64,000 bases of DNA from a virus (IMGVR_UViG_3300045988_011398); one strand, 5' to 3'; counted from the stretch's first letter, positions 8,801 to 63,056 are shown. Notes: generated from the letters alone by a model not told the origin. Numbers and translations: made by a program.

Positions 8801-11800
8801 AAAGATTGGTTGCAAGAGACTTGACTGCATTATTCAAATCATCCTCACTCAATGAATTAGCAAGTGCATCAATGGACTCTTGTATATTCTTATATACCTG
8901 AGTACTTTGTACTTCAACATCCTCAGGATTAAACTCAGTTTTGTTGAAGTGCTTTACTCTTACAGCAGCAGGTGAATACTTACCAGCAGCATTAGGTATA
9001 AGAAGATACATTCTACCCTCCTTTTGAGCCATATCTACTGGCTTGATAATAAGACTATCATCCAATCTACCATTAGTAGCCAATGTACCATTCTTGATTA
9101 TACCAAAGATAGGTGCTCTGCCCTCTCCTGATACATTAGGTATATTAGCCAAGCTTCTTTCCTCTGTGCTATAAGGTATTCTACCTACCATTACTTGTGA
9201 CACTCTTGTAGTAGGAGTAGCAATAAATCTCTTACTCTTATCACTTCTCTGTGCAAACTCAGCTTTTATCTTCTCTTCAAGACCAGCCAGACCCTCATAT
9301 CTATCTACTGAATAGTCAGATTCATCAAGGCTACCTACAATCTGGTTATTTCTTCTATCTACAATAAAGATTGTATGGTCATTGAACTCAGGGTCAATCA
9401 TAAATCCAAGCTCATCACCTGCCTTCAGATTACCTTCATTCACATAAGTAAATGCACCATTATCTCTTAGATAGTTATATAACTCATCAAAGTTTACACC
9501 TTTCTCTCTTTCAGCAGCTACTACATTGAATGGTCTAAAATCTCCTTCCTTACTTGCCTGAATATGCAACTCAGGTATTGAAGGTCTGTAGTAGGGTCTT
9601 CTACTCTTTTGCTTGCTGTCAAGTGATTGTGGGGTTTCAACTCTATTATTAGTTTCCTTATTCTCATCCTTTACTTGAGTTGCAGTTACATTACCTACAG
9701 GAGGTTCATAAGTAACCACAGGAAGACCCTCAGTGCTAACTGGAGGAATAGTAGAAGTACCACTATCACCTGTAGTATCTTTTGTAGGAGCCTTGGGATT
9801 TGGCTTGCCCTTTTCTCTTAGTGTCCTATAATCTTGTGAGAATCTATCCTTAAATCTATTCTCATTGTTGATTTGATTCATTGCTCTAAGAAGTGCATAC
9901 TGAGCTTCTTGGAATTTAACAGCATTCTCCTCTGGTGTTAAATTATCATCATACAGAGCATCTGCATTATCAACATATATAGAGTTAGGATTTGCTATCT
10001 CATTTAGATTAGAGGAGTTCTCAAATTGGTCTTGAAGTAGTTTAAGAGCATCTGCCTTGACAGCAGGACTTTCATCAAGAGAATTAATTGCTCTTTGCAC
10101 ATCTGTGTTGTAGGCATTTACTTCCCTATAATTCTTAGCCATCTCATTACCTTCATCTTCAAGAGATTTAAGTGTCTCTTCTCTTGTAGCAGCATCCTCT
10201 TCCTCATTAAGAGCCTGTCTGAACTCAGATAAGTTAGTGGCTGAGAGTAGTCTGCTCTTCAGATTATCAGACTTTTTCTTAGCTTCTTCCTTAGCAATGT
10301 TCTCAGTAGATGAGACTATATCTTCTTGGAGCTTAGCAGGATTCTCAAGATATTCCTTTAGCTTAGTATTATATTTACCAGTAGCATCTACTAATTTCAC
10401 AATATCATCAATCTTCTCATTGAATGCTTGTGCATCATCAGCAGTTACTCCACTAAGAGGACTCTCTATTACTGACTTGATTCCCTCTACTAACTTGGGG
10501 TCACTTGACAAGAGATAAGCAAAAGTCTTATCATCAAGACCTCTTACAGTCTCAAGAATAGACATATTCTTCCTTATCTGTCTCTCATTCTTATCAGCAG
10601 AATTATACAAATCAGACAATCCTGCATGAGCCTTACCTTCCTCAGTCTTGATTGAATTGTACATATCAGCAAGCTGAGACATACTTCCAAGCACTGTACC
10701 AATAGTAGGCTTTACTTCACTTGAAAGTTGATTAGCCCTATCTTGCCAATTACCAATTTGAGACTTCAACCAAGTCAATTCCTCAAGTTGCTCATCACTT
10801 AATTGCTGACCAGTTCTTACATCAATATCATCCTTAATCTTAGTATAGTTAGTGATAGTATTAAGCATTTCATCTCTTGTCTGAGTCAGCTTATCTATCA
10901 TTTCCTGCTTTCCCTCAGGAGTACTGTACATAGGATTACCATTCTTATCAATGAATGGACCAACCTTAGCTTCCTTACCATTTTCATCAGTTATAGTAGA
11001 AGTAGTATTTTCTACTATTGATGCAAGGTTCTCATCAGAAGTGTCATAGGCAGAATTAATGAGAGTAGTTAAATCTTCAAGTTTACCTGCATTATCAAAC
11101 ATTGCAATGTCAGAAATCAACTGAGCATGTTCAGCATTCTTGAACTCAAACTCATCATTGTTTTCTACAGCTTGGTTCATATCATTCTGATACTTATTAT
11201 GTCTGATAAGACCTTGATAGTAATTTATGAACTCAGGAGATTGAACCCTCTCATTCATATAATTAGCTATCTCATTCTCTCTATTCATCTTGTCTCTATA
11301 CTCTCTGAACTCACCAATAGTTCCACCTTCAAGAGTAACAGGAGATTGTAATCTACCTTCACTACTTCTTATCCCTCTGAACCTTGGCATACCAAGAGCA
11401 CCAGTAAGAGTACCAATAAAGAACTCCTCCCATGATGAACCATCATTCACTGTCTCATTAATACCTTGAGCAAAGGATTTCATCCAACTCAGTGTCTCCT
11501 GCTCAGCCTGTGAGTCTATCTTGGCTTTGTAGAAGTTATTTACATCATCCTCATAGTAATTACCAAATATTCTACTTGCTGCACCTTGTGAAATTTCCTC
11601 AAGACCCTCAGAAAGAGGACTCAAAGTAGCTCTTGCAATTCCCTTACCTGTAGTTCTTCCTGTAGTATATTCTCCTGCCTTACCAACTATGTTGGTTGCT
11701 TTTCTTGCAGTCTTGAAGCCATTGGCATACATTCTACCAAACTGAATAAGGTTAGATGCAGTAAGAATAGGTATATTCATAAGCAGGTCTGCATTACCCA

Positions 11801-49377: not shown

Positions 49378-49830
49378 TTAATAAGGTCTAATATCACAAA
49401 GTTCAAATAGATACTTATACTTATTAATATTCTGAATGAATGTCTCACACTCTGAAGTAATACCTTTATATACAGTCTCCTGTGGTATCTTATCATAGAA
49501 TACTACAGTAGCACCTCTTACTTCATTTATGAAGTCTATAGCATTAAGAGTATCACTTGGAGTACCTTTTATAACATTAGGTTGCATCTTACCAAGTATT
49601 CCCATGTATCCTTCTGCAAGACTGTCTTGATAGTCTGAAAGTATGCTCAGAAATTCATCAAGATATACATGTATATTCTTCTTAGGTGCTGCCCAATGCA
49701 AGTTTTTACACTTTGTTTTCCACCCTTCAAGTCTATTCAAGAAGCTAATAAAGAACTCGGAAGGATTCATATTAGGGTCTTCTTGTTTCATTGTTTCAAG
49801 TGGTGTCAATAACATATCATCACCATACAT
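49378..49830 (-). CDS. Dps/ferritin-like four-helix protein (150 aa) embedded in the tRNA array
   Basis: KNLHWAAPKKNIHVYLDEF...DYQDSLAEGYMGILGK parallels the Dps signature (HW...H...D-x3-E ferroxidase ligands). Own promoter box at 49856-49863. Confidence 0.45.
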   Translation of the reverse strand: MYGDDMLLTPLETMKQEDPNMNPSEFFISFLNRLEGWKTKCKNLHWAAPKKNIHVYLDEFLSILSDYQDSLAEGYMGILGKMQPNVIKGTPSDTLNAIDFINEVRGATVVFYDKIPQETVYKGITSECETFIQNINKYKYLFELCDIRPY

Positions 49831-49855
49831 AAGCTTTATTGTTTATTTGATAATG

Positions 49856-49889
49856 CAAAGGTAAGTATTTTATTTGGAATATGCAAATA
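49856..49889 (-). promoter_or_regulatory. Bacteroidetes-type promoter (-7 TACCTTTG, -33 TTTGC)
   Basis: Gene-sense ATTTGCATATTCCAAATAAAATACTTACCTTTGCATTA, with the -7 box 26 nt upstream of the ATG at 49830. Confidence 0.65.
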
Positions 49890-52150: not shown

Positions 52151-52299
52151 ATATAAAAAGAAAAAGGAATACTACTTAACACAATGGTTCAAGTGGTATT
52201 CCTTCTAACACTAAATTACCAACCAAAACCAATCTTTATGTACCTTCAATTAGTTGCCCATTATTGTTTTGCATATCCTTTTTATCCTTAATTGCACTG

Positions 52300-52334
52300 C
52301 AAAGATAAGTAAAATTTTTGAGATATGCAAATCT
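52300..52334 (-). promoter_or_regulatory. Bacteroidetes-type promoter driving the tRNA array (-7 TATCTTTG, -33 TTTGC)
   Basis: Gene-sense GATTTGCATATCTCAAAAATTTTACTTATCTTTGCAGTG, ~150 nt upstream of the first tRNA (52150). Confidence 0.65.
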
Positions 52335-52448
52335 TTAAGGAATTATTTTATCAACTATTTTATAACTCTCTCATTATCAGTGTTTACTGCATTGTCAGGA
52401 AGAGTAGTATTAAGATTGATTTTGAGTGCTGTTTATCAAAACAAGCTA

Positions 52449-52841
52449 TTAATCACTATTACCCATTAACCAATGCTCAGTATAAAATTTGTAATAATCC
52501 CAATTGAGACCTAATTTACTACATACAGCATGTACAATGTTATGTATTACTGAAGGTATTCCAATGACTATCAGATACAATGGTCCAAGTATATCAGATT
52601 GTCTACTATGACCATATTCATGCTCTATACTTTCCTTAGTAGCATCAGTAGGCATGAATAGATAATCACCTAATGACATAGGTGAAGGCAATACATCACA
52701 CCATATTATCTGATTGCCATCTTCTTTAACACCTCTTGTAGCTGCATTACACAATATACCTTCAAGACATACAGCTAACATGTTCTGTGGAAATTGCCAT
52801 ATCCACTTCAAAGATTCTTTAATTGTCTTCTTAATATCCAT
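52449..52841 (-). CDS. Small HExxH-motif protein (130 aa), putative metallopeptidase-like
   Basis: KESIEHEYGHSRQSD contains HEYGH. Hydrophobic LYLIVIGIPSVIHNIV segment. Preceded by a ~300-nt leader from the promoter at 53152. Confidence 0.45.
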   Translation of the reverse strand: MDIKKTIKESLKWIWQFPQNMLAVCLEGILCNAATRGVKEDGNQIIWCDVLPSPMSLGDYLFMPTDATKESIEHEYGHSRQSDILGPLYLIVIGIPSVIHNIVHAVCSKLGLNWDYYKFYTEHWLMGNSD

Positions 52842-53866: not shown

Positions 53867-54701
53867 ATTGTGTGCAATGTTTTATGATTCAATTAATTAA
53901 GTCTGTGAACTGAATGAAACTGGTTCACCTTATAAATTGAACTTATGCAGTGCTGTAGTCAGGTGAAGGTAGTAATGCAAAACCCCTCACTACTTTGCCA
54001 ATTTGAATCATCAACAAATCACCATCAATCTGTAATGTATAGCTAAATTTACTGAGTGCAACACAAAATCAAACTATTGATAACCTGATTAAATATCACC
54101 CCAATGCACAATATTGCCCAGTTTATTTGTGAATAATAGTAGCAAAAGACACCAAACACAGGGCTAAATGTGTGAGAGAACAAACTAATAATCCTATAAT
54201 CACTGATTAGTCATACATTATTTCTTATTTAGACTACTGAGGAGCATGACTTAATGAAAGTTAGCTGGGAAGTAAAGATACATACACCTCCAAGGACTGT
54301 GTGAGATTAAAAGGGTGATTTCATCACTCAGAATACATCAATAGCTTAGTGAGTGGAAAGGAATAGACTCAACTTAGAACCCAGAAACAAGTAATGAGTA
54401 AGATTGTGAACTGTGTATCCAATATTGTGTAGTAAAATAAAATATGATGTAGTAAAGTGGCACAGGTTTATGTTCAGTGCATTAAATAGGTAATGGAGAC
54501 TAAAGAGACATACATTATATAATAATATTGTCTTGGATAAAGTCTGACCTTCTATCTTTACAGGATTAATCAAGAGAACTACAAAGCACATTAGTTTAAT
54601 GGAAAACATTATTGAGGTATAGTACTTAATAATATGATGGTTCAAATCCATCATGTGCTTCAATTAACAAACAACAATCAATCAATCAAACTTTCAAACA
54701 A

Positions 54702-56383: not shown

Positions 56384-56457
56384 GCTGCCATAGCTCAATT
56401 GGATAGAGCAACAGACTTCTAATCTGTAGGTTCTGAGTTCGAGTCTCAGTGGTAGTA
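56384..56457 (+). tRNA. tRNA-Arg(TCT), second copy, + strand
   Basis: Acceptor GCTGCCA/TGGTAGT (two G:U), D arm GCTC AATTGGATA GAGC, anticodon arm ACAGA CTTCTAA TCTGT, T arm CTGAG TTCGAGT CTCAG. Confidence 0.8.
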
Positions 56458-56494
56458 CAACAATAAACAATTAAACAATTAAACATTTAATCTT

Positions 56495-56719
56495 ATGATG
56501 GTGATATTAAATTCCTCTGCTATATTAGAGGGAGTCAAAGATTTACAAGCAAATTCTATTAAAGAAGGGTTATTACTCTGTGCTGAGAATACTAAAAAGG
56601 CTAATGAATTTGAAGAAATATTGAAGAAATTCAATATCAAATATCAAAGATTTGGTCAAGGTACTCAATTTGAAATAAATTGTTGGTCTGTTAGTGCCTA
56701 TGATAATATAAATAGATAA
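56495..56719 (+). CDS. Hypothetical protein (74 aa)
   Basis: ORF at the start of a visibly more AT-rich stretch (~56470-58060). Confidence 0.45.
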   Translation: MMVILNSSAILEGVKDLQANSIKEGLLLCAENTKKANEFEEILKKFNIKYQRFGQGTQFEINCWSVSAYDNINR

Positions 56720-56721
56720 AT

Positions 56722-57183
56722 ATGGGACAGAAATGGCAATATTACGGTTTATTTCTTAATAAAGAGGCAAAAATACAATTATTTACAATGGTAGTAGCGA
56801 ATTTTTTGAATAATATTAAGAACCCCAACAAAGTATGTTTGGACCATTGTACTTTATTGCATAAATCTCAATTAGACAATGATAATACCATATTCCTTAA
56901 TAGATGTATAAAATCCAGACTTGATTATCTATTGGAGAATAATATAATCAGAGCTAAATTGATGATTACCTCAGTAGGTATATCTGAAAAAGCTATGGCT
57001 TTCAAAGTTATAATTCTTAATAATAATGAGGGAATATATGACTATGAAATCTGTGCTAACGAGATACCACATATTACTATTTGCACATTTAATGGTGGTA
57101 AGCCAGTAGATAGTAATAATATTGTTAAGTGGCATGATTTAGATGAGCCTATAGAGATTGAAACAACACTAAAAAGAGTATAA
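56722..57183 (+). CDS. 2H phosphoesterase superfamily protein (two HxT motifs), Acb1-like or LigT-like
   Basis: 153 aa. LDHCTLLH (H42-x-T44) and IPHITICT (H117-x-T119). Size and motif spacing are those of small 2H cyclic-nucleotide/2',3'-cyclic phosphodiesterases. Confidence 0.6.
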   Translation: MGQKWQYYGLFLNKEAKIQLFTMVVANFLNNIKNPNKVCLDHCTLLHKSQLDNDNTIFLNRCIKSRLDYLLENNIIRAKLMITSVGISEKAMAFKVIILNNNEGIYDYEICANEIPHITICTFNGGKPVDSNNIVKWHDLDEPIEIETTLKRV

Positions 57184-57184
57184 A

Positions 57185-57511
57185 ATGAAAATAACTTCAC
57201 TACAACAATTAAAAGACTGGAATAATCAATATGCTGTTGGTTCAACTTTTAGAAAAGAACATGATGAAGCTAAATTTCCTATCTTATTAGAATGGTTTCT
57301 TGATTGGTTCTTTGAAGAAGCTTTATTAGATATAGAAGTAGCAAGAGAGGCTTTTAATGAATATGTAAATTTTGCCTATATATGTACAGAGCTTCCACCA
57401 GAAGCTTCTCTTGGAAGGTGCTTACATAACCTTAATTATTGGTATGATAGAGCATCCTATTATAATTCAAGAGCAAAACAATTTAAGAAATTTAAGGCAG
57501 AGTGTTTATAA
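57185..57511 (+). CDS. Hypothetical protein (108 aa)
   Basis: ORF 1 nt after the upstream stop. Trp/Phe/Glu-rich. Confidence 0.45.
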   Translation: MKITSLQQLKDWNNQYAVGSTFRKEHDEAKFPILLEWFLDWFFEEALLDIEVAREAFNEYVNFAYICTELPPEASLGRCLHNLNYWYDRASYYNSRAKQFKKFKAECL

Positions 57512-57531
57512 ATTAATAATTTGATATACAA

Positions 57532-58065
57532 ATGAACAAGAAACTAAGATTGCTTGTTACGACAGATTGTCCTAACAAGTGCCCTATGTGCTGCAATAAT
57601 CAGTTTGATTTCAGCAAACTGCCTGTAGTAGATAGGTGGAATTATGATGAAATCATGATTACTGGAGGTGAACCTTTGTTGTTTACAGATACTTTAGTAG
57701 AGGTATTAATTTCCATAAAAGAATTAAGTTCTCTCACTGGAAACCATCCTAAACTATTTATTTATACTGCTGATTGCACTAACAAGATTATTAAAGTCTT
57801 ACCCCATGTTGATGGTATAGTACTTACTCCACACAAGCAATCAGATATTGTACACTTTATTGAACTAAATAAGTTCATACTTGTACATAAGACCCAATTT
57901 TATATCCGAGATACATCACTTAGATTAAATCTTTTTCCTGACATGAAAGCCCTCTTACCTAAAGATATTGATTTATCATTATGGGAAGTAAAAGATATGG
58001 AGTGGATAGAAAACTGTCCAGTTCCAGAGGGTGAGGACTTCAGGAGAATAGCTAATTTATGGTAA
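57532..58065 (+). CDS. Small radical-SAM enzyme (177 aa), NrdG/QueE-sized
   Basis: CPNKCPMC (CxxxCxxC) at residues 13-20 and IMITGGEPLLF (GGE SAM-binding motif). Confidence 0.6.
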   Translation: MNKKLRLLVTTDCPNKCPMCCNNQFDFSKLPVVDRWNYDEIMITGGEPLLFTDTLVEVLISIKELSSLTGNHPKLFIYTADCTNKIIKVLPHVDGIVLTPHKQSDIVHFIELNKFILVHKTQFYIRDTSLRLNLFPDMKALLPKDIDLSLWEVKDMEWIENCPVPEGEDFRRIANLW

Positions 58066-58391
58066 TAATTCAAAACAGAAATACAATGAGAAAATGGACA
58101 GAAGAGGATAAGAATATCCTCCTTGAGGAAATCTCAAATGACCCAAGTAACTTACAGAATGTCTTCAGAAGAACTGCTGAAAGAATAGGCAGGACTAAAG
58201 CCGCAGTTGCAACATACTGGTATCAGGTACTTGCTCCTAAGAACAGAAATAACAGGAGTAATACTGCATTCATGTCCTACAGTAAAGGCAGCATAAACAG
58301 CAATAGGAAAATATCCAGAGAGAATACTCAACAGCCTGTTGCAGTAAGAAGGAGCAAATGGAGAAGAATACTTGATATAATCTTTGAATAA
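58059..58391 (+). CDS. Myb/SANT-like DNA-binding protein (110 aa; possible start at the MRKW Met, 58086)
   Basis: RKWTEEDKNILLEEI...IGRTKAAVATYWYQVL has the W-x(18-20)-W Myb-repeat pattern. Basic C-terminus. Overlaps the upstream stop (ATGGTAA). Confidence 0.45.
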   Translation: MVIIQNRNTMRKWTEEDKNILLEEISNDPSNLQNVFRRTAERIGRTKAAVATYWYQVLAPKNRNNRSNTAFMSYSKGSINSNRKISRENTQQPVAVRRSKWRRILDIIFE

Positions 58392-58400
58392 GATTGGATT

Positions 58401-58725
58401 GGGGCATGATTTGGTTTTGATTGCTGATTATCAGGTAAGAGAACATGCAGAGACTGATGGAGAGACATCAAACAATTAACTGGCAATACTTCTTATAGAG
58501 TTGCTGCCTAAACATAGGCTGAGCAGCACTTGCTTGGAAACAGAAAGGTGCAATAGTGGTGGATTTTCCTTATTTATCTGACCCTGACAAGTTAAATAAG
58601 GTGGTGGAATGGTATGTCAATCCGGGCAACCCCAGTAGATAACCAACTGCACATCAAATAGGTAAGCATGTGAAATTCTTTTACAGGAGATTAGTAAGAC
58701 AGGGGTTCGAGTCCCCTATGCTCCA
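58401..58725 (+). ncRNA. ssrA: tmRNA (ssrA-like) with tag ORF GNTSYRVAA-stop
   Basis: 5' GGGGCATGATTTGGTTTTGATTGC matches the tmRNA 5' consensus. 3' GACAGGGGTTCGAGTCCCCTATGCTCCA gives a T arm plus acceptor. Acceptor GGGGCAT/ATGCTCC has G3:U70 (Ala identity). Internal frame GGC AAT ACT TCT TAT AGA GTT GCT GCC TAA lies at 58482-58511. CCA is not encoded. Confidence 0.85.
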
Positions 58726-58752
58726 CATTAAACTTAATTAATTCTTAAAACA

Positions 58753-58938
58753 ATGGGAGAAATTTCAGAGATGATTCTTGATGGCACATTAGATGCTGTC
58801 ACAGGAGAGTACATTGGTGAGCCTTGTGGTTATCCTCGAACCTATGTGAAGGATAGTGCCTATGCTTATGTGAGAAAGAGTAAGAGAGCAAGGCAAAGCA
58901 ACAAGCCTAAAGTAAAGAAAATGAGAAACAAATATTAA
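58753..58938 (+). CDS. Hypothetical protein (61 aa), basic C-terminus
   Basis: ORF 27 nt after the tmRNA 3' end. Confidence 0.45.
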   Translation: MGEISEMILDGTLDAVTGEYIGEPCGYPRTYVKDSAYAYVRKSKRARQSNKPKVKKMRNKY

Positions 58939-58970
58939 GTTGAACAGTCCTTTTGGACAAAAAAAAAGTT

Positions 58971-59339
58971 ATGTATCTTGAGTTTATGATTATTGGTCTC
59001 ATTGGAGGCTTGTTGGGCATTTTCTATAGAAATTGTCTCAAAGTAGAGGACATGATTTTCAATCCTCTGTACAAGAAGGTATTAAAACCTTGGGCATTGG
59101 GCAGTAATAGATTCTTATCTTTTATTGCTTATCCTCTTGGATTCTGTATCTATTGCAGTACCACTTGGATTACATTCTTCCTTTGCTTACTCTTCCTGAC
59201 ATCATGGGAAGTGTTACCTAAATGGCAGGATATAGTAATAGGAGTAATTGCAGCAAGTGGTGTACAACATCTTGTAGTGTGTGCAGTTTGTAGATGGCTG
59301 ATACACAAGCATCCAGACTTAGACAATAGTTATAATTAA
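58971..59339 (+). CDS. Multi-pass membrane protein (122 aa)
   Basis: The track ORF starts at a TTG (58953); the first ATG is at 58971. Three to four hydrophobic helices, CIYC motif. Followed by a terminator. Confidence 0.5.
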   Translation: MYLEFMIIGLIGGLLGIFYRNCLKVEDMIFNPLYKKVLKPWALGSNRFLSFIAYPLGFCIYCSTTWITFFLCLLFLTSWEVLPKWQDIVIGVIAASGVQHLVVCAVCRWLIHKHPDLDNSYN

Positions 59340-59354
59340 TAGGTGAGAAAAAAA

Positions 59355-59389
59355 AAGTTCCCAATTTTCTTGTGTAATTGGGAACTTTT
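59355..59389 (+). terminator. Intrinsic terminator
   Basis: 12-bp stem AAGTTCCCAATT / AATTGGGAACTT with a 9-nt loop, followed by TT. The 3' arm abuts the next promoter. Confidence 0.7.
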
Positions 59390-59400
59390 ACTTACCTTTG
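59368..59400 (+). promoter_or_regulatory. Bacteroidetes-type promoter for the Ro60/Y-RNA unit (-7 TACCTTTG, -33 CTTG)
   Basis: CTTGTGTAATTGGGAACTTTTACTTACCTTTGCAGTG, with the -7 box 30 nt upstream of the ATG at 59430. Same extended consensus as the minus-strand promoters. Confidence 0.65.
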
Positions 59401-59429
59401 CAGTGTCAAACAATTAAAAAGACAAAGAA

Positions 59430-60839
59430 ATGAGTAAAGTAAATCCGTCATTGAAGAAAACCTCAAAGTTTGAGGAAGAAAGATTGGCTGGTGGTTCAGG
59501 TGCATTAGCAGCTAAACAGAGTAATGTTGCATTGTTGAGGAGAGCAGTATTAGCTAATCTTCTTTGGGAAGATGTAGCATACATGGATGGAATGAAGGTT
59601 GCTGAAGAAATTCAGAGATTGATTCCTTTGTGTCCTGCTGAAGATGTATATCACATTGCTCTTGAAGCAAGGACAATGCAGAAGTTAAGACATACTCCTT
59701 TATTCCTTGCAGTGGAAATGTGCAAGTATCCTGAGCATAAGAAGTTTGTGCAAGAATTGCTGCCTCAGATTATCACAAGAGCAGACATGCTTACTGATTT
59801 CTTGGCTATTTATTGGAGGGATGGTAAGAAACCTATTGCTAATCAAGCAAAGAAAGGTTTGGCAAAGGCATTCCATAATTTCAATGAATACAAGTTTGCT
59901 AAATATGATAGAGATGCAGCTATTAAGCTGAGAGATGTCATGTTCTTATGCAGACCTAAGCCTGAGAATCAGTATGAGCAGACTTTGTTCAAGAAGGTAG
60001 CAGATAGAACTCTTGCAACACCTGAGACATGGGAAGTGCTACTGTCTACTGGAAAGGATAAGAAAGAGTCTTGGGCTAAACTTATCACTGAAGGTAAGAT
60101 TGGTGGTCTGGCTATGTTGAGAAATATAGCCAACATGAGAAGAGCAAGTGTGGACAAGAAGGTGATTGAAGAAGGTCTTGAGAAGTTGAAATCTTCAATG
60201 CTCATGCCTTTGGACTTCTTGAAAGCAAATAAAATGAACCCTGAGTTCAGCAGACAGATAGAGGATGCTATGATAAGTAGCTATGCTAATTTGCCTGAGT
60301 TGAAAGGTAAGACTCTTTTCATTGTGGATGTGTCAGGTTCTATGCAAGCTCCAATGTCTGCAAAATCTGATTTCAGCAGATATGATGCAGCATGTGCTAT
60401 GGCTATGTTAGCAGCCAATCAGTGTGAGGACTATGAAATAGTTTGTACTGCTGGTAATGACTACTCTCATACAGGAGCACATGAGCATATTCCTTATCCT
60501 CAGAAAGGTTTTGGAATCTTTGAACAAATCCATAGCACTAATAGGAGAATTGGAGGTGGAGGTATATTCACCAGACAATGCCTTGAATGGTGTAATGACA
60601 AGTTCAAGGGTCAGAAGTTTGATAGAATCATTGTATTCTCAGACTCTCAAGACTGTGACTTGCCTGCAAGGAGAGTTCCTAAACCTTTTGGTACTTACAA
60701 CTATATTTGTGATGTGTCAGCACACACAAAAGGTGTAAACTACAGAGGTGCATGGACTGCTGAGATAAGTGGCTTCTCGGAGCATTTCATCACATTCATT
60801 GCAGCAATGGAAGGTATTCAGAATACCTTTGAAGAATAA
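59430..60839 (+). CDS. rsr: Ro60-like protein (TROVE domain + vWA domain with a MIDAS motif), Rsr ortholog candidate
   Basis: 469 aa. N-terminal RLAGGSGALAAKQSNVALLRRAVLANLLWEDVAY and VYHIALEARTMQKLRHTPLFLAVEM resemble TROVE signatures. C-terminal LFIVDVSGSMQAPMS (DxSxS MIDAS) and IIVFSDSQD indicate a vWA fold. A Y-RNA-like element starts 4 nt after the stop. Confidence 0.7.
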   Translation: MSKVNPSLKKTSKFEEERLAGGSGALAAKQSNVALLRRAVLANLLWEDVAYMDGMKVAEEIQRLIPLCPAEDVYHIALEARTMQKLRHTPLFLAVEMCKYPEHKKFVQELLPQIITRADMLTDFLAIYWRDGKKPIANQAKKGLAKAFHNFNEYKFAKYDRDAAIKLRDVMFLCRPKPENQYEQTLFKKVADRTLATPETWEVLLSTGKDKKESWAKLITEGKIGGLAMLRNIANMRRASVDKKVIEEGLEKLKSSMLMPLDFLKANKMNPEFSRQIEDAMISSYANLPELKGKTLFIVDVSGSMQAPMSAKSDFSRYDAACAMAMLAANQCEDYEIVCTAGNDYSHTGAHEHIPYPQKGFGIFEQIHSTNRRIGGGGIFTRQCLEWCNDKFKGQKFDRIIVFSDSQDCDLPARRVPKPFGTYNYICDVSAHTKGVNYRGAWTAEISGFSEHFITFIAAMEGIQNTFEE

Positions 60840-60842
60840 AAC

Positions 60843-60986
60843 AAAGAGTACTGTGTAGTGTTTTGTCAGACTTACTTCATTAACTAAGTGGTATAGTGCA
60901 AAACTTTTAATTTTGATGTCACAGGTTCGAGTCCTGTATGAGATTGGGGAAACCTAAGTCTGACATCTGTTCTCACAGTACTCTTT
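60843..60986 (+). ncRNA. YrlA-like Y RNA: a long terminal helix carrying an embedded tRNA-like cloverleaf
   Basis: Terminal 13-bp helix AAAGAGTACTGTG/CACAGTACTCTTT, an internal loop, then 10-bp GTCAGACTTA/TAAGTCTGAC. Inside: acceptor-like TTCAT/ATGAG, D arm ACTA AGTGGTA TAGT, anticodon-like arm CAAAA CTTTTAA TTTTG, T arm ACAGG TTCGAGT CCTGT. Confidence 0.65.
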
Positions 60987-60993
60987 TCAATAT

Positions 60994-61125
60994 GGAGGAG
61001 TTAGCTCAGTTGGTAGAGCACTTAAATGTTACTCTGTCAAATGTTCCATAGTAATATTGGTGGCAGATAGAGTTACTTCGGTATGTGGAACCAGTGGTCA
61101 TAGGTTCGAGTCCTATACTCCTCCC
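60994..61125 (+). ncRNA. tRNA-like RNA 1: canonical acceptor, D and T arms, with ~74 nt in place of the anticodon arm
   Basis: GGAGGAGT...ACTCCTCC (8 bp possible), D arm GCTC AGTTGGTA GAGC, T arm ATAGG TTCGAGT CCTAT. The insert contains stem ACTCTGTC/GATAGAGT, a GTAA-capped hairpin and the motif AGAGTTACTTCGGT. Confidence 0.55.
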
Positions 61126-61126
61126 T

Positions 61127-61235
61127 AAATGCAGTATAGTGTACATTAGACTTTCATCAATTTGAATTTGATAATAGTTGCGGATATGCTTTTGCAAAGT
61201 GTATATATTGTCTGATGGCTTTTCTTACTGCATTT
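61127..61235 (+). ncRNA. Stem-closed structured RNA (unassigned)
   Basis: 10-bp terminal helix AAATGCAGTA/TACTGCATTT enclosing ~90 nt with internal hairpins (ATCAA...TTGAT; TTGC...GCAA). No ORF. Confidence 0.4.
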
Positions 61236-61243
61236 CACAATAT

Positions 61244-61375
61244 GGGGATGTAGCTAAATAAATTCATACTCTTATGCCTTTTCTCTGGTAAAGCAGTAGT
61301 GTTTGTAAGAGTTACTTCGGTTATAGCATTTGTCTTGTAAACAAAAGTATATTGGTTCGAGTCCAATCATCCCCG
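61244..61375 (+). ncRNA. tRNA-like RNA 2, paralog of tRNA-like RNA 1
   Basis: Acceptor GGGGATG/CATCCCC, T arm ATTGG TTCGAGT CCAAT, degenerate D region. The insert has a covarying stem ACTCTTA/TAAGAGT followed by the same AGAGTTACTTCGGT motif. Same 5' flank CAATATGG as RNA 1. Confidence 0.55.
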
Positions 61376-61381
61376 CAAAAT

Positions 61382-61518
61382 AGAGGTTGGTGTATGTAGT
61401 GGTTACTTCATATTATACATGACTATATTTGAATTTAACCCCCACAGATGTAAACAGACTGATTCTGTGGTTTCAATACATACAAAAACAACATGCCATT
61501 ACAGGATGTTCCACCTCT
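61382..61518 (+). ncRNA. Stem-closed structured RNA (unassigned)
   Basis: Terminal helix AGAGGT(T)GG/CCACCTCT. Inner pairings GTATGTA/TACATAC and hairpin CCACAGA...TCTGTGG. Contains GGTTACTTC, related to the motif in the tRNA-like RNAs. Confidence 0.4.
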
Positions 61519-61521
61519 TTA

Positions 61522-61553
61522 GGGCTACAGTAGAAATATTGTAGCCCTTTTTT
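61522..61553 (+). terminator. Intrinsic terminator closing the Ro60/ncRNA transcription unit
   Basis: GGGCTACA ...10-nt loop... TGTAGCCC followed by TTTTTT. Confidence 0.8.
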
Positions 61554-61554
61554 A

Positions 61555-61582
61555 TTTGAGTATGTTACCAAACATATATTTG
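61555..61582 (+). promoter_or_regulatory. Bacteroidetes-type promoter (-33 TTTG, -7 TATATTTG)
   Basis: TTTG at 61555-61558 and TATATTTG at 61575-61582, 27 nt upstream of the ATG at 61609. Confidence 0.55.
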
Positions 61583-61608
61583 ATTTATTAACTTTCTAAA
61601 AAAAAAAG

Positions 61609-61971
61609 ATGGAGAATCAAGAAAAGACTACTCTTGACAGAGTATTGAAAGAACAGCACTTTAAGAATGCTGAGGAAGCCATTAAAGGTGGTGAGAAAAC
61701 TGGAAGCCTGAAGAATCCTGAATTAGTCAAAGAGCTTATTGAAGGATACAAAGGCAAGACTGTTCAAGCACCTATTGAGGTGATTATAACAAGTGCCATC
61801 TTCCTTGATGCAAAGGAGCTGATTGGCACTATTGAAGCCTTGAAGCACACTGTACAGATGAAGATAGTAGAGGAGCTGAAGGCTAAGGCAGACAAAGGTG
61901 AAGCAACAGCAGAAGATGCAATGCTTGCACTTATGATTGCCATGAGCAACAAAATGGGTAAGAAGGAATAA
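61609..61971 (+). CDS. Hypothetical protein (120 aa)
   Basis: ORF preceded by an A10 tract. Helical Lys/Glu/Ala-rich composition. Confidence 0.5.
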   Translation: MENQEKTTLDRVLKEQHFKNAEEAIKGGEKTGSLKNPELVKELIEGYKGKTVQAPIEVIITSAIFLDAKELIGTIEALKHTVQMKIVEELKAKADKGEATAEDAMLALMIAMSNKMGKKE

Positions 61972-61988
61972 ACCATCACAGACAAAGG

Positions 61989-62369
61989 ATGAATAATACA
62001 ACTAAAATCTCCCTGACCATTGAATTGGAGGGGAGTACTCTTGTACACAAGAGTGAGCCTGAGACTATTAAATACTCAGTAACCAAGAGAGACCTTGAGC
62101 CTAACAAGAAGTGGAGAGGCAAAGATGGTCTGGAAGTAGTGAGAAAGGGTACTTTCAAGCATTATCCTCTCATTGCAAAGCCAGCCAGTCAGCACATCAA
62201 CATGAGTGCAGAGGCATATGAATATATGACCTCAAATGAATGTCCCTTCTGGGCTAAGCCTAAGGTATGGGCAATCATGAGTGAAACTCAAAGGCTCGAA
62301 GCACATTTGCAGAGAACTTGTGAGCATGTAGGAGGTAAGTCTTTCACTTATGAAGTGTTAGGAGATTAA
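61989..62369 (+). CDS. Hypothetical protein (126 aa)
   Basis: ORF followed by a hairpin plus a T9 tract. Confidence 0.5.
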   Translation: MNNTTKISLTIELEGSTLVHKSEPETIKYSVTKRDLEPNKKWRGKDGLEVVRKGTFKHYPLIAKPASQHINMSAEAYEYMTSNECPFWAKPKVWAIMSETQRLEAHLQRTCEHVGGKSFTYEVLGD

Positions 62370-62385
62370 TTATCTCAGTGCAAAG

Positions 62386-62429
62386 AGAAAGGAGTATGCT
62401 GAATAAGCCTGCCCCTTTCTTTTTTTTTA
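62386..62429 (+). terminator. Probable terminator (weak stem, T9 tract)
   Basis: AGAAAGG ...21 nt... CCTTTCT followed by TTTTTTTT. Confidence 0.45.
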
Positions 62430-62513
62430 GTGTAAACTGATTAAATAATAAGGTTATTATGACTAAAAAAAAAAGTATAATATAGTCTTAATGCCAAGAT
62501 AAATGATGGAGAT

Positions 62514-63056
62514 ATGGCAGAATTTGTATATTTCAAGAATGCTTGTAGGATGTGGTATCCTGTAGGACAGTATTTCTCTTCAGATAACTTTGATTATATA
62601 AGAGAAGCTGCATCTTCCATTAATAAAGTATTCCCAACAGGTAAACTTATCTTGGTAGTAAGAGGACACTCAGGCTCCATACTTGCAGGTGGTATAGCAT
62701 ATATACTGAAAAGAAAAGACAGGGATGTATTAATATCTGTGTCAAGGAAAGCAGAATCTACTCATGGTGATAATCTTGAAGGTATATCATCATATACTGT
62801 ATCAGGTGACACACACATAATAGTTGTTGATGACTTTGTTCAAACAGGTGAAACTATTGAGGCTATACTCAAAGATTTGACTGAAAGAATAGAGGATATG
62901 AAAGTATTTGACATGTTATGTGTTGCTAATCACTGGGATGAGGATGATTTGACTGAGGAAGGAGGAAAGAGAGGAACTAACAGATATTGGGAGGCAAACA
63001 AAAGGATTGCTTCTCATTTTGAGTATATATTGTGTAACAGACCAGATGAGGAATGA
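62514..63056 (+). CDS. Type I phosphoribosyltransferase-fold protein (180 aa)
   Basis: PRPP-binding signature HIIVVDDFVQTGETI, upstream LILVVRGHSGSILAG loop. Confidence 0.55.
   Translation: MAEFVYFKNACRMWYPVGQYFSSDNFDYIREAASSINKVFPTGKLILVVRGHSGSILAGGIAYILKRKDRDVLISVSRKAESTHGDNLEGISSYTVSGDTHIIVVDDFVQTGETIEAILKDLTERIEDMKVFDMLCVANHWDEDDLTEEGGKRGTNRYWEANKRIASHFEYILCNRPDEE

What the first reader, a model, noticed from the sequence alone, without database searches (positions are those of the whole stretch)
56384..63056. Accessory island concentrating RNA-centred functions: a candidate translation/RNA-surveillance takeover module
Within 6.7 kb on one strand lie tRNA-Arg(TCT), a 2H phosphoesterase, a radical-SAM enzyme, a Myb-like DNA binder and a tmRNA. 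They are followed by a membrane protein, Ro60/TROVE-vWA, a YrlA-like RNA, two tRNA mimics, two further structured RNAs and a PRTase-fold protein. In bacteria, rsr-yrlA loci are linked to RNA repair operons (rtcBA). Here the partners are different (2H enzyme, radical SAM, tmRNA), and the whole set is carried by a virulent-type gut phage next to a 29-tRNA array. As an ensemble it looks like a system for keeping translation running, or for repairing and decoying RNA damage, during infection. I am not aware of this combination being described.
Basis: inference. Interest (0 to 1): 0.8.

Follow-up and report, generated by a model that had tools for sequence, protein, structure and literature searches.

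The report
Phage Ro60 with five Y RNAs
This stretch of a crAss-like gut phage holds a conserved Ro60 protein gene followed by five tandem Y-type RNAs (three shaped like tRNAs), next to a cargo slot where a tmRNA, an RNA-end phosphodiesterase and other genes come and go independently, so it is not one fixed "RNA takeover" system.

Summary
All listed features are present. The window is a crAss-like phage of subfamily Asinivirinae, a relative of crAss001. The tRNA-Arg, tmRNA, 2H phosphodiesterase, radical-SAM protein, membrane protein, Ro60/TROVE-vWA and PRTase all verify. Only the Myb call is weak.

The ensemble reading fails. Across 57 fetched related loci (56 distinct), plus a same-species contig fetched later, only Ro60 and the RNAs after it are near-constant. 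The stretch between tRNA-Arg and Ro60 is a hypervariable slot. tmRNA and the 2H gene each occur in about a third of relatives and are uncorrelated (odds ratio 1.17, p = 1). A relative with 99%-identical Ro60 lacks the 2H/radical-SAM/Myb block. The radical-SAM gene is a copy of crAss001 gp56, a replication-module gene.

The solid result is 60843-61518: five tandem RNAs share one module, and a terminator follows them. The module is a distal helix, a bulged U, a covarying R:Y pair and a G:C pair, a UG/UGUU loop, a proximal helix, then UUACUUC. A bacterial YrlA next to a TROVE gene has the same module. RNA B is a circular permutation of YrlA in tRNA order, and RNA C carries the module inside its D loop. 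Rfam does not detect them. Phage Ro60-Y RNA pairs are already known, so this is a new variant of a known kind.

The parts
56384..56458 (+). tRNA-Arg(UCU). It marks the left edge of the variable cargo slot. Most relatives have Arg(CCU) here.
   Evidence: ARAGORN; Rfam 70.1 bits; positional equivalents in relatives.
56495..56719 (+). 74-aa ORF of unknown function. It travels with the 2H gene in some relatives.
   Evidence: ORF list; tblastn hits next to 2H in L003, L013, L023 and L039; no family hit.
56722..57183 (+). 2H phosphoesterase of the Trl1-CPD/CNPase branch, a predicted 2',3'-cyclic phosphodiesterase. Accessory cassette.
   Evidence: Pfam PF08302 36.3 bits; two invariant HxT motifs; model pLDDT 91.7; fold matches 6U05 and CNPase, no Acb1 in the top 50; present in about a third of relatives.
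57185..57511 (+). 108-aa ORF of unknown function. No full-length match in any locus fetched.
   Evidence: The only hit is a 20-residue fragment in L184/L185.
57532..58065 (+). Small radical-SAM protein, a paralog or translocated copy of crAss001 gp56 from the replication module.
   Evidence: CX3CX2C and GGE motifs invariant; 60% identity to gp56; PHROG 31524 at 3.6e-19; model pLDDT 92; weak radical-SAM fold matches; contexts.
58059..58391 (+). 110-aa ORF with weak Myb/SANT-like similarity. Accessory.
   Evidence: Pfam 19.5 bits, below the 24.4 cut-off; homologs only in L009, L011, L014 and L036.
58401..58728 (+). tmRNA with tag GNTSYRVAA*. Accessory, present in about a third of relatives.
   Evidence: ARAGORN; Rfam RF00023 66.4 bits against 47; G3.U pair read from the alignment; complete copies and stumps in relatives.
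58753..58938 (+). 61-aa ORF of unknown function.
   Evidence: found only in the closest relatives.
58953..59339 (+). Small membrane protein, homolog of crAss001 gp97 (annotated DUF1360). It usually sits just upstream of Ro60.
   Evidence: Three hydrophobic segments; 64% identity to the crAss001 copy; present in 32 of 45 loci.
59430..60839 (+). Ro60-like protein (TROVE plus vWA with MIDAS). This is the conserved core gene.
   Evidence: Pfam TROVE 9e-14; PHROG 850 at 1.4e-35; PDB 9l5y phiRo60 at E 9e-16 over residues 24-461; present in all related loci; an early gene in crAss001 (PMC8375218).
60843..60986 (+). Y RNA A. Terminal helix, then UAGUG/UGUUCU motif, proximal helix and UUACUUC. It encloses a complete tRNA-Lys(UUU)-like cloverleaf at 60874-60945.
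   Evidence: Sequence; fold z -3.7; ARAGORN/Rfam tRNA 59 bits; module scan; compensatory changes in L008.
60995..61124 (+). Y RNA B. It has tRNA order (acceptor, D arm, capped Ro60-type module, UUACUUC, short hairpin, T arm, acceptor) and is a circular permutation of YrlA.
   Evidence: Rfam tRNA 46 bits with a 70-nt insert; covariation 93.6% paired with 19 double-change pairs; the permuted sequence aligns to the L140 YrlA, score 96 against shuffles 59 +/- 5.
61127..61235 (+). Y RNA D. Terminal helix, UAGUG/UUUUCU motif, proximal helix. No tRNA-like part.
   Evidence: Fold z -2.5; module scan with a 10-bp terminal helix; conserved in the closest relatives.
61244..61375 (+). Y RNA C. A tRNA-like RNA with the capped module inside its D loop. 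It keeps a 5-bp anticodon stem with a highly variable loop.
   Evidence: Rfam partial tRNA 34 bits; covariation 96.8% paired with 17 double-change pairs; 12 distinct loops in 25 sequences.
61382..61518 (+). Y RNA E in canonical Y order (terminal helix, UGGUG, helix P, UUACUUC, non-tRNA effector, helix P', UGUUCC, terminal helix).
   Evidence: Fold z -4.5 including the terminator; RNAalifold finds compensatory changes in 7 of 15 pairs across clades.
61521..61556 (+). Intrinsic terminator that closes the Ro60-Y RNA unit.
   Evidence: 12-bp stem followed by a T run (sequence).
61989..62369 (+). 126-aa ORF of unknown function, conserved downstream of the RNA array in 50 loci.
   Evidence: Clustering (cluster 1); tblastn; no family hit.
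62514..63056 (+). PRTase-fold protein. Accessory, found only in the closest relatives, and unrelated to crAss001 gp59.
   Evidence: Pfam PF00156 26.4 bits against 26.3; PRPP loop in the sequence; distribution; no similarity to gp59.

Best explanation
The 6.7-kb stretch has two parts with different evolutionary behaviour. Both lie in the plus-strand gene arm, whose counterpart in crAss001 is transcribed early.

**(1) Conserved core.**
- It consists of a Ro60-like gene, usually preceded by a small membrane protein, and five Y-RNA genes packed directly behind it, closed by a terminator.
- All five RNAs share one module. In order it is: a distal helix, a bulged U, an R:Y pair and a G:C pair, a UG/UGUU internal loop, a proximal helix, then UUACUUC.
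- This module matches the Ro60-binding end of a bacterial YrlA.
- In A, D and E the distal helix is formed by the RNA's two ends. In B and C it is capped by a hairpin and the module sits inside an ordinary-order tRNA-like body.
- Inferred: Ro60 and the RNAs are made as one transcript. RNase P and tRNA 3'-end processing at B and C would release all five RNAs, which then load onto Ro60 early in infection.
- Inferred by analogy with bacterial Rsr-YrlA-PNPase and with Thermus phage phiRo60: the particles engage host PNPase and tRNA-recognising enzymes and so alter host RNA decay and quality control.

**(2) Cargo slot.**
- The stretch between tRNA-Arg and the membrane-protein/Ro60 genes is a recombination hot spot.
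- Unrelated cassettes are gained and lost there independently: the tmRNA, the 2H cyclic phosphodiesterase, a copy of the replication-module radical-SAM gene, the Myb-like ORF, and HNH endonucleases in relatives.
- The PRTase lies downstream of the RNAs and is likewise sporadic.
- The RNA theme is real for Ro60, the Y RNAs, the tmRNA, the tRNAs and the 2H enzyme. These are neighbours, not parts of one machine.
For: Shown:
- Identity of the phage and synteny with crAss001, cr106_1 and cr112_1.
- Ro60 homology to the solved phage phiRo60.
- Five modules fall within 660 nt. The other 128 kb (both strands) gives 3 weak hits, and shuffled sequence gives 1.6 per window.
- Across 56 related loci the module density is 2.7 per kb downstream of TROVE and 0.043 per kb elsewhere.
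- Covariation supports B, C and E.
- R:Y covariation within the motif: 85 A..U, 15 G..C, 2 A..C, 0 G..U.
- The same URGUG...AGAG-UUACUUC string heads a YrlA (Rfam 42 bits) beside a TROVE gene in a Bacteroidetes MAG.
- Permuted B aligns collinearly with that YrlA at about 7 sd above shuffles.
- The motif followed by a T arm occurs in at least 120 viral stretches. A TROVE homolog lies in the same short locus for 81 of 141 matches.
- A terminator follows E.
- Slot variability and independence.
- The radical-SAM protein is 60% identical to gp56 of the replication module.

From papers:
- crAss001 TROVE is an early gene (PMC8375218).
- phiRo60 binds phage Y-like RNAs and host PNPase and attenuates PNPase (PMC12135203).
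- YrlA mimics tRNA and lies beside Ro60 in bacteria and 22 phages (PMC4201824).
Against: - No binding, expression or processing data exist for these RNAs.
- Rfam's YrlA model scores only 20.8 bits here, and that hit is an artefact spanning two genes.
- The Ro60 protein fails NCBIfam's Rsr equivalog threshold (16 bits against 900), so it is a distant relative.
- Covariation counts come from related sequences and are not corrected for phylogeny.
- Evidence for RNAs A and D rests mainly on close relatives.
- tmRNA and the 2H gene turn up repeatedly in this one slot in several lineages. That leaves room for a loose functional affinity that presence/absence counts cannot exclude.
Confidence: 0.75

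Rival explanations
1. The whole set (tRNA-Arg, 2H, radical SAM, Myb, tmRNA, membrane protein, Ro60, RNAs, PRTase) is one integrated system that keeps translation running or repairs and decoys damaged RNA during infection.
For: - All parts lie on one strand, and the simple scan finds no terminator between 53826 and 61521.
- The arm is early in crAss001.
- Several parts act on RNA.
- tmRNA and 2H recur in the same slot in different lineages.
- crAss001 also encodes two polynucleotide kinase genes that could partner a CPDase.
Against: - tmRNA and 2H are uncorrelated (odds ratio 1.17, p = 1).
- The radical-SAM gene and the 108-aa ORF are absent from the 57 loci first fetched.
- Strains with near-identical Ro60 carry none, or only one, of the cargo genes.
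- The usual context of the radical-SAM gene is DNA replication and nucleotide metabolism.
- 2H occurs without TROVE in other phages.
- Other slot families in relatives are not RNA-related.
- No RNA ligase was seen.
Confidence: 0.12
2. An anti-defence toolkit made of independent parts.
- The tRNA-shaped Y RNAs, with fast-changing anticodon-like loops, act on Ro60 as decoys or adapters against host tRNA-targeting nucleases.
- The tmRNA rescues ribosomes stalled by such attacks.
- The CPDase trims 2',3'-cyclic phosphate ends or cyclic-nucleotide signals.
- Each part is useful alone, which would explain the lack of co-inheritance.
For: - The anticodon-like loop of C is its most variable part: 12 loops in 25 sequences, at 1.07 bit per column against 0.18 in the T loop. 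The stem meanwhile covaries.
- A switches between Lys(UUU) and Arg(UCU) in near-identical relatives.
- The short hairpin in B often reads like an anticodon loop, for example CUUUUAA.
- The 2H fold belongs to the RNA-end CPD/CNPase branch.
- Phage TROVE/Y-RNA loci are usually embedded among tRNA genes (88 of 119 loci).
Against: - The tRNA-like parts resemble no particular phage tRNA (60-73% identity, which is generic).
- High loop variability equally fits a lack of constraint.
- No defence system or target is identified.
- Nothing here tests cleavage or decoying.
Confidence: 0.25
3. The tRNA-like elements are ordinary phage tRNA genes carrying introns, or decaying tRNA pseudogenes. On this view they are unrelated to Ro60.
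For: ARAGORN and Rfam call them tRNAs or tRNA fragments. The phage has a large tRNA array nearby.
Against: - The inserts are 45-70 nt. They are conserved with compensatory changes and share one motif with non-tRNA neighbours D and E.
- The motif is the Ro60-binding end of YrlA.
- The elements always follow TROVE.
- In B the canonical 5-bp anticodon arm is absent, with the module and a 3-bp hairpin in its place. In C the insert splits the D loop.
Confidence: 0.03

Closest known systems
phiRo60 with Yrl1/Yrl2 of Thermus phage phiLo (PDB 9l5y/9kop; PMC12135203)
   Same: - It is a phage-encoded Ro60 of about 470-500 aa with a HEAT ring plus vWA.
- It is the best PDB sequence match (E 9e-16, residues 24-461, MIDAS motif kept).
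- Its Y-like RNAs are encoded beside the gene.
- The proposed action is on host PNPase.
   Different: - The phiLo RNAs lie upstream, number two, and were defined by a CGAA motif and a stem-bulge-stem shape. They have no tRNA-like body.
- Here five RNAs lie downstream, three of them tRNA-shaped, with a URGUG/UGUUCY motif.
- No biochemistry exists for the crAss version.
Bacterial Rsr-YrlA (Rfam RF02553) and the Ro60-Y RNA-PNPase machine; the rsr-yrlA-rtcBA operon (PMC4201824, PMC7790460)
   Same: - The RNAs lie on the same strand as, and close to, a TROVE gene.
- The Ro60-binding strand is followed by YUAY (UUAC).
- The D arm UAGCUCAGUUGGUAGAGC and the T arm are nearly invariant.
- The module string is identical to that of a Bacteroidetes-MAG YrlA.
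   Different: - Canonical YrlA is ordered Ro-strand, V, T, closed acceptor stem, D, Ro-strand. B and C have open acceptor stems and a capped Ro module, which is a circular permutation.
- In C the module is placed in the D loop.
- A carries a whole cloverleaf.
- The Rfam model does not reach threshold.
- No rtcBA genes are present.
Ro60 and YrlA-like RNAs in mycobacteriophages (Chen et al. 2014, PMC4201824). From my own memory: cluster C1 phages such as Bxz1/ET08 also carry large tRNA sets and a tmRNA.
   Same: A lytic phage carries Ro60, Y RNA, many tRNAs and, as I recall it, a tmRNA in one genome.
   Different: - The host phylum and phage order differ.
- Those RNAs fit the canonical YrlA model.
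- I did not verify co-localisation of the tmRNA and Ro60 in those phages here.
crAss001 gp96 'TROVE domain-containing protein' (MH675552; PMC8375218, PMC10136315)
   Same: It is an ortholog (77% amino-acid identity) in the same position and an early gene. The same B and C RNAs, plus two short open-form Y RNAs, lie in its unannotated 900-nt downstream gap.
   Different: - crAss001 has no tmRNA, 2H gene or PRTase in this arm. Its slot holds an HNH endonuclease and gp98.
- The library papers I read that mention the crAss TROVE gene (PMC8375218, PMC10136315) describe no RNAs after it.
- Other library searches returned no relevant paper.
Healing enzymes of RNA repair: the Trl1 CPD domain, CNPase, and T4 Pnkp/Rnl1 acting against the PrrC anticodon nuclease
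   Same: The 2H protein has both HxT motifs. Its best structural matches are Trl1 kinase-CPD and CNPase.
   Different: It is a stand-alone 153-aa protein. No ligase or kinase lies in the island. In crAss001 the kinase genes sit in the replication module. The substrate is unknown.

Membership tests
Ro60 / TROVE-vWA proteins | TROVE (HEAT-repeat) domain | tested here: met
   Pfam PF05731 51.9 bits against a cut-off of 23. Full-length alignment to phiRo60 (9l5y) at E 9e-16. PHROG 850 at 1.4e-35.
Ro60 / TROVE-vWA proteins | C-terminal vWA domain with MIDAS motif DxSxS | tested here: met
   D300-V-S-G-S304 aligns with the same motif in phiRo60. Pfam vWA_Ro60 scores 23.8 bits, just below its 27.7 cut-off, and VWA_2 gives 1e-4.
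Ro60 / TROVE-vWA proteins | Closed ring-shaped tertiary structure | not tested
Ro60 / TROVE-vWA proteins | Orthology to bacterial Rsr (NCBIfam NF041674 equivalog) | tested here: not met
   16.1 bits against a cut-off of 900. It is a distant, phage-type member, not an Rsr equivalog.
Ro60 / TROVE-vWA proteins | Binds Y RNA and misfolded RNA; cooperates with PNPase | not testable with these tools
   Needs RIP or EMSA. Published only for other members (PMC12135203).
YrlA-type bacterial Y RNA (Rfam RF02553) | Reaches the Rfam gathering score (69 bits) | tested here: not met
   The only hit scores 20.8 bits and spans the T arm of A and the D arm of B, which is an artefact.
YrlA-type bacterial Y RNA (Rfam RF02553) | Ro60-binding strand followed by conserved YUAY, with a helix formed with a distant partner strand | tested here: met
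   URGUG-n-AGAG-UUACUUC is identical to the 5' part of a YrlA (Rfam 42 bits) beside TROVE in L140. The helices covary.
YrlA-type bacterial Y RNA (Rfam RF02553) | tRNA-like D and T arms with near-invariant sequence | tested here: met
   The B D arm UAGCUCAGUUGGUAGAGC is nearly invariant (the stem fully so) in 28 sequences, and the window copy is identical to the L140 D arm. The T arm covaries. This holds for A, B and C, not for D and E.
YrlA-type bacterial Y RNA (Rfam RF02553) | Canonical order: Ro strand, V, T, closed acceptor stem-loop, D, Ro strand | tested here: not met
   B and C are in tRNA order with open acceptor stems and a capped module. Only a circular permutation of B aligns with YrlA (score 96-103 against 64-73 unpermuted).
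YrlA-type bacterial Y RNA (Rfam RF02553) | Encoded within about 4 kb of, and on the same strand as, a TROVE gene | tested here: met
   The array starts 3 nt after the Ro60 stop codon. The same holds in relatives and in diverse viral contigs.
tmRNA (RF00023) | Covariance-model score above gathering; tRNA-like ends with a G3.U pair; tag reading frame ending in a stop | tested here: met
   66.4 bits against 47. The G3.U pair was read from the alignment. The tag is GNTSYRVAA* and is conserved in relatives.
2H phosphoesterase, Trl1-CPD/CNPase branch | Two HxT/S motifs and the 2H fold | tested here: met
   H42-C-T44 and H117-I-T119 are invariant in 36 homologs. Pfam PF08302 is above its cut-off. Foldseek matches 6U05 at E 9.5e-6 with TM 0.67, followed by CNPase entries.
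Acb1-type anti-CBASS 2H nucleases (considered) | Closest structural and sequence relatives are Acb1 proteins | tested here: not met
   No Acb1 entry appears among the top 50 PDB fold matches. The profile search of PDB sequences found nothing. Activity on cyclic nucleotides was not tested.
Radical SAM superfamily | CX3CX2C cluster motif, GGE SAM-binding motif and a partial TIM barrel | tested here: inconclusive
   The motifs are present and invariant. Pfam PF04055 scores 18.1 bits, below its 29.5 cut-off. The best fold matches are radical-SAM enzymes (viperin-like 9dfn at E 1e-3, TM 0.52) but are weak.
Myb/SANT DNA-binding domain | Pfam gathering score | tested here: not met
   19.5 bits against 24.4. 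The other Myb models are also below their cut-offs.
Type I phosphoribosyltransferase fold | Pfam PF00156 and a PRPP-binding loop | tested here: met
   26.4 bits against 26.3, which is borderline. The loop VVDDFVQTGET is in the sequence. No specific NCBIfam family reaches its cut-off.
   tmRNA against 2H gives odds ratio 1.17, p = 1 in 45 loci. The radical-SAM gene occurs in none of the 57 loci first fetched. Same-species strains differ in cargo.

The most novel reading that the evidence does not exclude
crAss-like phages, the most abundant phage group of the human gut, load an early-expressed Ro60 with a battery of up to five Y RNAs. Three of these are tRNA-shaped, and their anticodon-like loops diversify quickly. 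The particles would work as programmable tRNA decoys or adapters: they would divert host tRNA-targeting defence nucleases, or steer host PNPase. The adjacent hot spot would collect further counter-measures to translation shut-off, such as the tmRNA and the cyclic phosphodiesterase.
Probability: 0.15. Interest if true: 0.8.

Novelty: new variant of a known kind. Interest (0 to 1): 0.55.

Why it matters
Ro60 and Y RNAs are conserved from bacteria to humans, and Ro60 is a lupus autoantigen, yet their role in phages is barely explored. crAss001 and its relatives can be grown on Bacteroides intestinalis, so an array of Y RNAs in these phages offers a tractable system for three questions:
- what a viral Ro60 particle does early in infection;
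- why Y RNAs mimic tRNA;
- whether tRNA order versus permuted order matters for processing by RNase P and the CCA-adding enzyme.

The work also has practical consequences.
- Current tools mislabel these RNAs as tRNAs or miss them. Rfam's YrlA model fails on the tRNA-order forms.
- A short signature (AGAGUUACUUC followed by a T arm) finds many unannotated Ro60-linked RNAs in viral metagenomes.
- Thematic clustering of genes in a phage hot spot is not evidence of a system.

Tried and rejected
- **Loose genome scan.** The pattern GAAGTAACTSTN{2,11}CACYA against genome contigs was far too unspecific. It was rescued only because two of the loci carried TROVE.
- **Acb1 idea for the 2H protein.** I rejected this because the fold search gives Trl1-CPD and CNPase, with no Acb1. 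The sequence and profile searches of the PDB were empty.
- **Four-wobble-pair register for UGUUC/URGUG.** This was my first reading. I replaced it with the bulged-U, R:Y, G:C register after finding the R:Y covariation.
- **Decoys of specific phage tRNAs.** A, B and C resemble no particular phage tRNA more than generically.
- **Sigma-70 promoter scan.** It is uninformative: 39 sites found against 42.5 expected. I regard the sigma-70 consensus as a poor model for Bacteroides and crAss early promoters, from my own knowledge.
- **Extra module-like hits** at 52153-52213(-), 52309-52458(-) and 49801-49873(+) are at chance level.
- **Pfam scan of 20 slot families from relatives.** It found no further RNA-repair genes.
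- **TROVE homolog list.** It was saturated by close relatives and gave no distant context.
- **CcrColossus as a precedent.** Its TROVE locus has a tRNA-like call upstream but no tmRNA nearby.
- **PRTase against crAss001 gp59.** The two are unrelated.

Full report
**What the window is.** The queried stretch matches crAss-like phages of the family Steigviridae, subfamily Asinivirinae. The Ro60 gene is about 75% identical in DNA to crAss001 gp96, cr106_1 and cr112_1. The gene order is shared:
- a large tRNA array on the minus strand;
- a divergent plus-strand arm of small genes;
- a tRNA-Arg, then a short variable stretch;
- a small membrane protein, then the TROVE gene;
- a 0.5-0.9 kb unannotated gap, then further small genes.

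In crAss001 this arm is transcribed within 10 min of infection, and the TROVE protein is named among the early products (PMC8375218; PMC10136315).

**Checking the observation.**
- ARAGORN and Rfam agree on tRNA-Arg(UCU) at 56384-56458 and on a tmRNA at 58401-58728 (66.4 bits against a gathering score of 47; tag GNTSYRVAA).
- The 153-aa protein at 56722-57183 passes Pfam's tRNA-ligase CPD model. Two HxT motifs are invariant in 36 homologs. Its confident model (pLDDT 91.7) best matches the Trl1 kinase-CPD structure 6U05 and then CNPase. It is therefore a 2',3'-cyclic phosphodiesterase-type 2H enzyme and not, for example, an Acb1-type nuclease.
- The 177-aa protein at 57532-58065 has invariant CX3CX2C and GGE motifs. 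Its model (pLDDT 92) weakly matches radical-SAM enzymes. Pfam is below threshold.
- The Myb call is weak.
- The 128-aa protein has three hydrophobic segments.
- The 469-aa protein has a TROVE domain. It aligns over nearly its full length to the solved Ro60 of Thermus phage phiLo, with the MIDAS motif kept.
- The PRTase passes Pfam narrowly and has a PRPP loop.
- The minus-strand array has 27 tRNA calls rather than 29.

**Is it one system?** I fetched 54 related loci from IMG/VR and three annotated genomes, 57 loci in all. I then mapped every window protein and RNA onto them.
- Only Ro60, the RNAs after it, the 126-aa ORF at 61989 and, in most loci, the membrane protein are widely conserved.
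- The radical-SAM gene and the 108-aa ORF beside it occur in none of the 57 loci.
- The 2H gene occurs in about 16 loci, at 37-50% identity.
- A complete tmRNA occurs upstream of TROVE in 13 of these loci (14 of 45 once the window is counted). Other loci hold 5' or 3' stumps.
- The Myb-like ORF occurs in four loci and the PRTase in three.
- In the 45 loci with at least 3 kb upstream of Ro60, tmRNA and 2H are independent. The counts are 5 with both, 9 with tmRNA only, 10 with 2H only and 21 with neither (odds ratio 1.17, p = 1).
- L004, whose Ro60 is 99% identical, has no 2H, radical-SAM or Myb gene and only the last 95 nt of the tmRNA.
- A same-species contig (L181; flanks 94-100% identical, mostly 97-100%) has only tRNA-Arg, a 73%-identical radical-SAM allele and the tmRNA.
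- The radical-SAM protein is 60% identical to crAss001 gp56. That gene sits in the replication module beside ThyX, a HicA-like gene, a PRTase and two polynucleotide kinase genes.
- The most abundant homolog cluster has the same replication context.
- 2H homologs also occur in 175-187-kb phage contigs with no TROVE within 6-7 kb.
- Twenty other gene families that occupy the slot in relatives are mostly unknown. The rest are AAA ATPases, glucosaminidases and SPFH proteins, not RNA enzymes.

The stretch between tRNA-Arg and Ro60 is therefore a recombination hot spot with independent cassettes.

**The RNA array.** The Ro60 stop codon is at 60837-60839. A strong terminator lies at 61521-61548. Between them lie five closely packed structured RNAs. 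Read 5' to 3', all five carry the same elements:
- URGUG;
- one strand of a helix P;
- UUACUUC;
- elsewhere in the RNA, the other strand of P followed by UGUUCY.

A second, distal helix joins UGUUCY back to URGUG.
- In A (60843-60986), D (61127-61235) and E (61382-61518) the distal helix is made by the two ends of the RNA.
- In B (60995-61124) and C (61244-61375) it is a short capped hairpin, often closed by GUAA or GAAG.

A purpose-built scan finds these five modules within 660 nt. The remaining 128 kb of both strands gives three weak hits, and shuffled sequence gives 1.6 per window. Across the 56 related loci scanned, module density is 2.7 per kb in the 1.3 kb after TROVE and 0.043 per kb elsewhere on the same strand. 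Most phages have three to five modules. crAss001 has two RNAs of about 70 nt in the open form, plus B and C, in its unannotated gap.

**Structure support.**
- For B (28 sequences), 93.6% of cells pair, against 35-48% when partners are slid. Nineteen pairs show changes on both sides, spread over the acceptor stem, T stem, helix P and the capped helix.
- For C (25 sequences), 96.8% of cells pair and 17 pairs show double changes. These include the D stem that encloses the module and a 5-bp anticodon stem.
- For E-type RNAs from several clades, RNAalifold recovers the terminal helix and helix P, with compensatory changes in 7 of 15 pairs.
- That fold also pairs the R of URGUG with the Y of UGUUCY. 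Among 102 distinct module sequences the combinations are A..U 85, G..C 15, A..C 2 and G..U 0.

The motif is therefore a helix, a bulged U, an R:Y pair and a G:C pair, and then a UG/UGUU internal loop. These counts are not corrected for shared ancestry. The pattern nevertheless holds across paralogs and in both topologies.

**What the RNAs are.** Rfam calls parts of A, B and C tRNA, and gives YrlA only 20.8 bits on an artefactual span. A badly chosen genome-wide pattern scan still returned two loci with a TROVE homolog.

One of them, L140, a Bacteroidetes MAG, has a YrlA (Rfam 42 bits) that reads as follows:
- CCUAG-UGGUG-CCGUA-GAAAAGAG-UUACUUC;
- V region, T arm, closed acceptor stem, then D arm UAGCUCAGUUGGUAGAGC;
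- CUUUUUUC-GCC-UUUUGCC-CAUUAGG.

This is the same module and the same D arm as in B, but in the published YrlA order (PMC4201824). If B is cut at URGUG and rejoined, it aligns collinearly with this YrlA. The score is 96 for the window copy and 103.5 for crAss001, against 59-62 +/- 5-6 for shuffles and 64-73 unpermuted.

So the five RNAs can be classed as follows:
- B is a YrlA in tRNA order.
- C is a tRNA-like RNA with the module in its D loop.
- A is a Y RNA whose effector is a complete tRNA-Lys-like cloverleaf.
- D and E are Y RNAs without tRNA parts.

The signature AGAGUUACUUC followed within 15-45 nt by a T arm occurs in at least 120 IMG/VR stretches, where about one is expected by chance. 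For 81 of 141 matches a TROVE homolog (24-98% identical to one of three queries) lies in the same short locus, on the same strand, usually 200-900 nt away. Both the canonical order and the tRNA order occur outside crAss phages. The tRNA-order form is therefore not unique to this phage. It is simply not captured by Rfam.

**How it most likely works.** The shown steps are the gene content, the RNA structures, their homology to YrlA, and their linkage to Ro60.

The inferred steps are these.
- The array starts 3 nt after the Ro60 stop, and the only predicted terminator follows E. Ro60 and the RNAs are therefore probably one early transcript.
- B and C have 7-bp acceptor stems and sit between A, D and E with spacers of 2-9 nt. 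RNase P and tRNA 3'-end processing at B and C would release all five RNAs.
- M. smegmatis YrlA is cut by RNase P and receives CCA (PMC4201824).
- The RNAs would bind Ro60 through the shared module.
- By analogy with bacterial Rsr-YrlA-PNPase, and with phiRo60, which binds its own Y-like RNAs and host PNPase and dampens PNPase (PMC12135203), the particles would act on host RNA decay or quality control. The tRNA-like domains might engage tRNA-recognising proteins.

The anticodon-like loop of C is the most variable part of the RNA (12 loops in 25 sequences). A switches between Lys(UUU) and Arg(UCU) in near-identical phages. That is compatible with a decoy role or with a lack of constraint. The tRNA-like parts do not copy any particular phage tRNA.

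**Comparison with what is known, and novelty.**
- Ro60 with YrlA-like RNAs was reported in 22 phages in 2014 (PMC4201824). A phage Ro60 has been solved and studied (PMC12135203).
- TROVE proteins are annotated in many cultured phages, including crAss001.
- Phage tmRNAs and tRNA arrays are routine, and cr106_1 already carries an annotated tmRNA next to its TROVE gene.
- I found no description of Y RNAs in crAss-like phages in the searchable library, and Rfam does not detect them.

The new elements are the five-member array, the tRNA-order and D-loop-insertion topologies, and the R:Y-defined motif. I rate this a new variant of a known kind. The "takeover module" as an ensemble is not supported.

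**Limits.**
- No expression or binding data exist for these RNAs.
- Covariation is not phylogeny-corrected.
- The Ro60 ring was not modelled.
- Co-occurrence was measured within one subfamily.
- The replication module of this particular phage lies outside the window.

Noticed in passing
window 54585-54661 (+): A tRNA-like gene with an 8-nt anticodon loop (ARAGORN 'atag'; Rfam tRNA 47 bits). The gene at the equivalent position in relatives carries many different loops (taat, ccaa, agag, caat, Ile aat/gat, Tyr ata, His atg, Gly tcc, Leu caa, Thr agt). This is a second tRNA-shaped RNA in this arm with an unusually variable anticodon.
   Followed up: partly
L004 9204-9298; L013, L023, L036 and L049 (5' ~150 nt); L027: Truncated tmRNA remnants sit in the same slot in relatives: either the 3' 95 nt only or the 5' half only. 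This indicates repeated loss or disruption of the tmRNA at this hot spot.
   Followed up: partly
window 57532-58065; crAss001 MH675552 67864-68406 (gp56): The radical-SAM gene in the early arm is 60% identical to crAss001 gp56. In crAss001 gp56 lies in the replication module beside HicA-like gp55, ThyX gp54, PRTase gp59 and two polynucleotide kinase genes, gp60 and gp61. Whether this phage also keeps a copy there cannot be seen, because that region lies outside the window.
   Followed up: partly
IMG/VR loci L187-L305: The signature AGAGTTACTTC-N15-45-GGTTCRARTCC marks Ro60-linked Y RNAs in very diverse viral contigs (5-435 kb). Both canonical and tRNA-order forms occur. ARAGORN makes at least one tRNA call in 88 of the 119 loci (684 calls in 984 kb). 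Phage Ro60/Y-RNA loci therefore tend to sit among tRNA genes.
   Followed up: partly
L041, L043, L044 (TROVE 71% identical): In this clade a 484-aa AAA ATPase follows TROVE directly. RNAs B and C are displaced 2.6-6 kb downstream. A second AAA ATPase lies upstream in L043.
   Followed up: no
L003 (cr112_1) 9463-9975 and similar loci L026, L029, L031, L042: An HNH endonuclease gene is inserted between the TROVE stop codon and the Y-RNA array. It shifts the array by about 500 nt.
   Followed up: no
L069 4189-4211 (-), Acidobacteriota MAG: UGGUG-AAAGAGC-AGAGUUACUUC lies 1.9 kb upstream of a TROVE gene (38% identical). No recognisable T or D arm follows, and Rfam gives no YrlA hit. It may be a divergent Y RNA.
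   Followed up: no
window 52153-52213 (-), 52309-52458 (-), 49801-49873 (+): Three weak module-like matches (6-8 bp helices) lie near or inside the tRNA array. Their number is what shuffled sequence gives, so they are probably chance.
   Followed up: partly
L306 (Caulobacter phage CcrColossus) 7672-9000: A 1.3-kb non-coding stretch upstream of the CcrColossus TROVE gene holds a 68-nt feature annotated 'tRNA-Gln'. It may be a Y-RNA tRNA-like domain rather than a tRNA.
   Followed up: no
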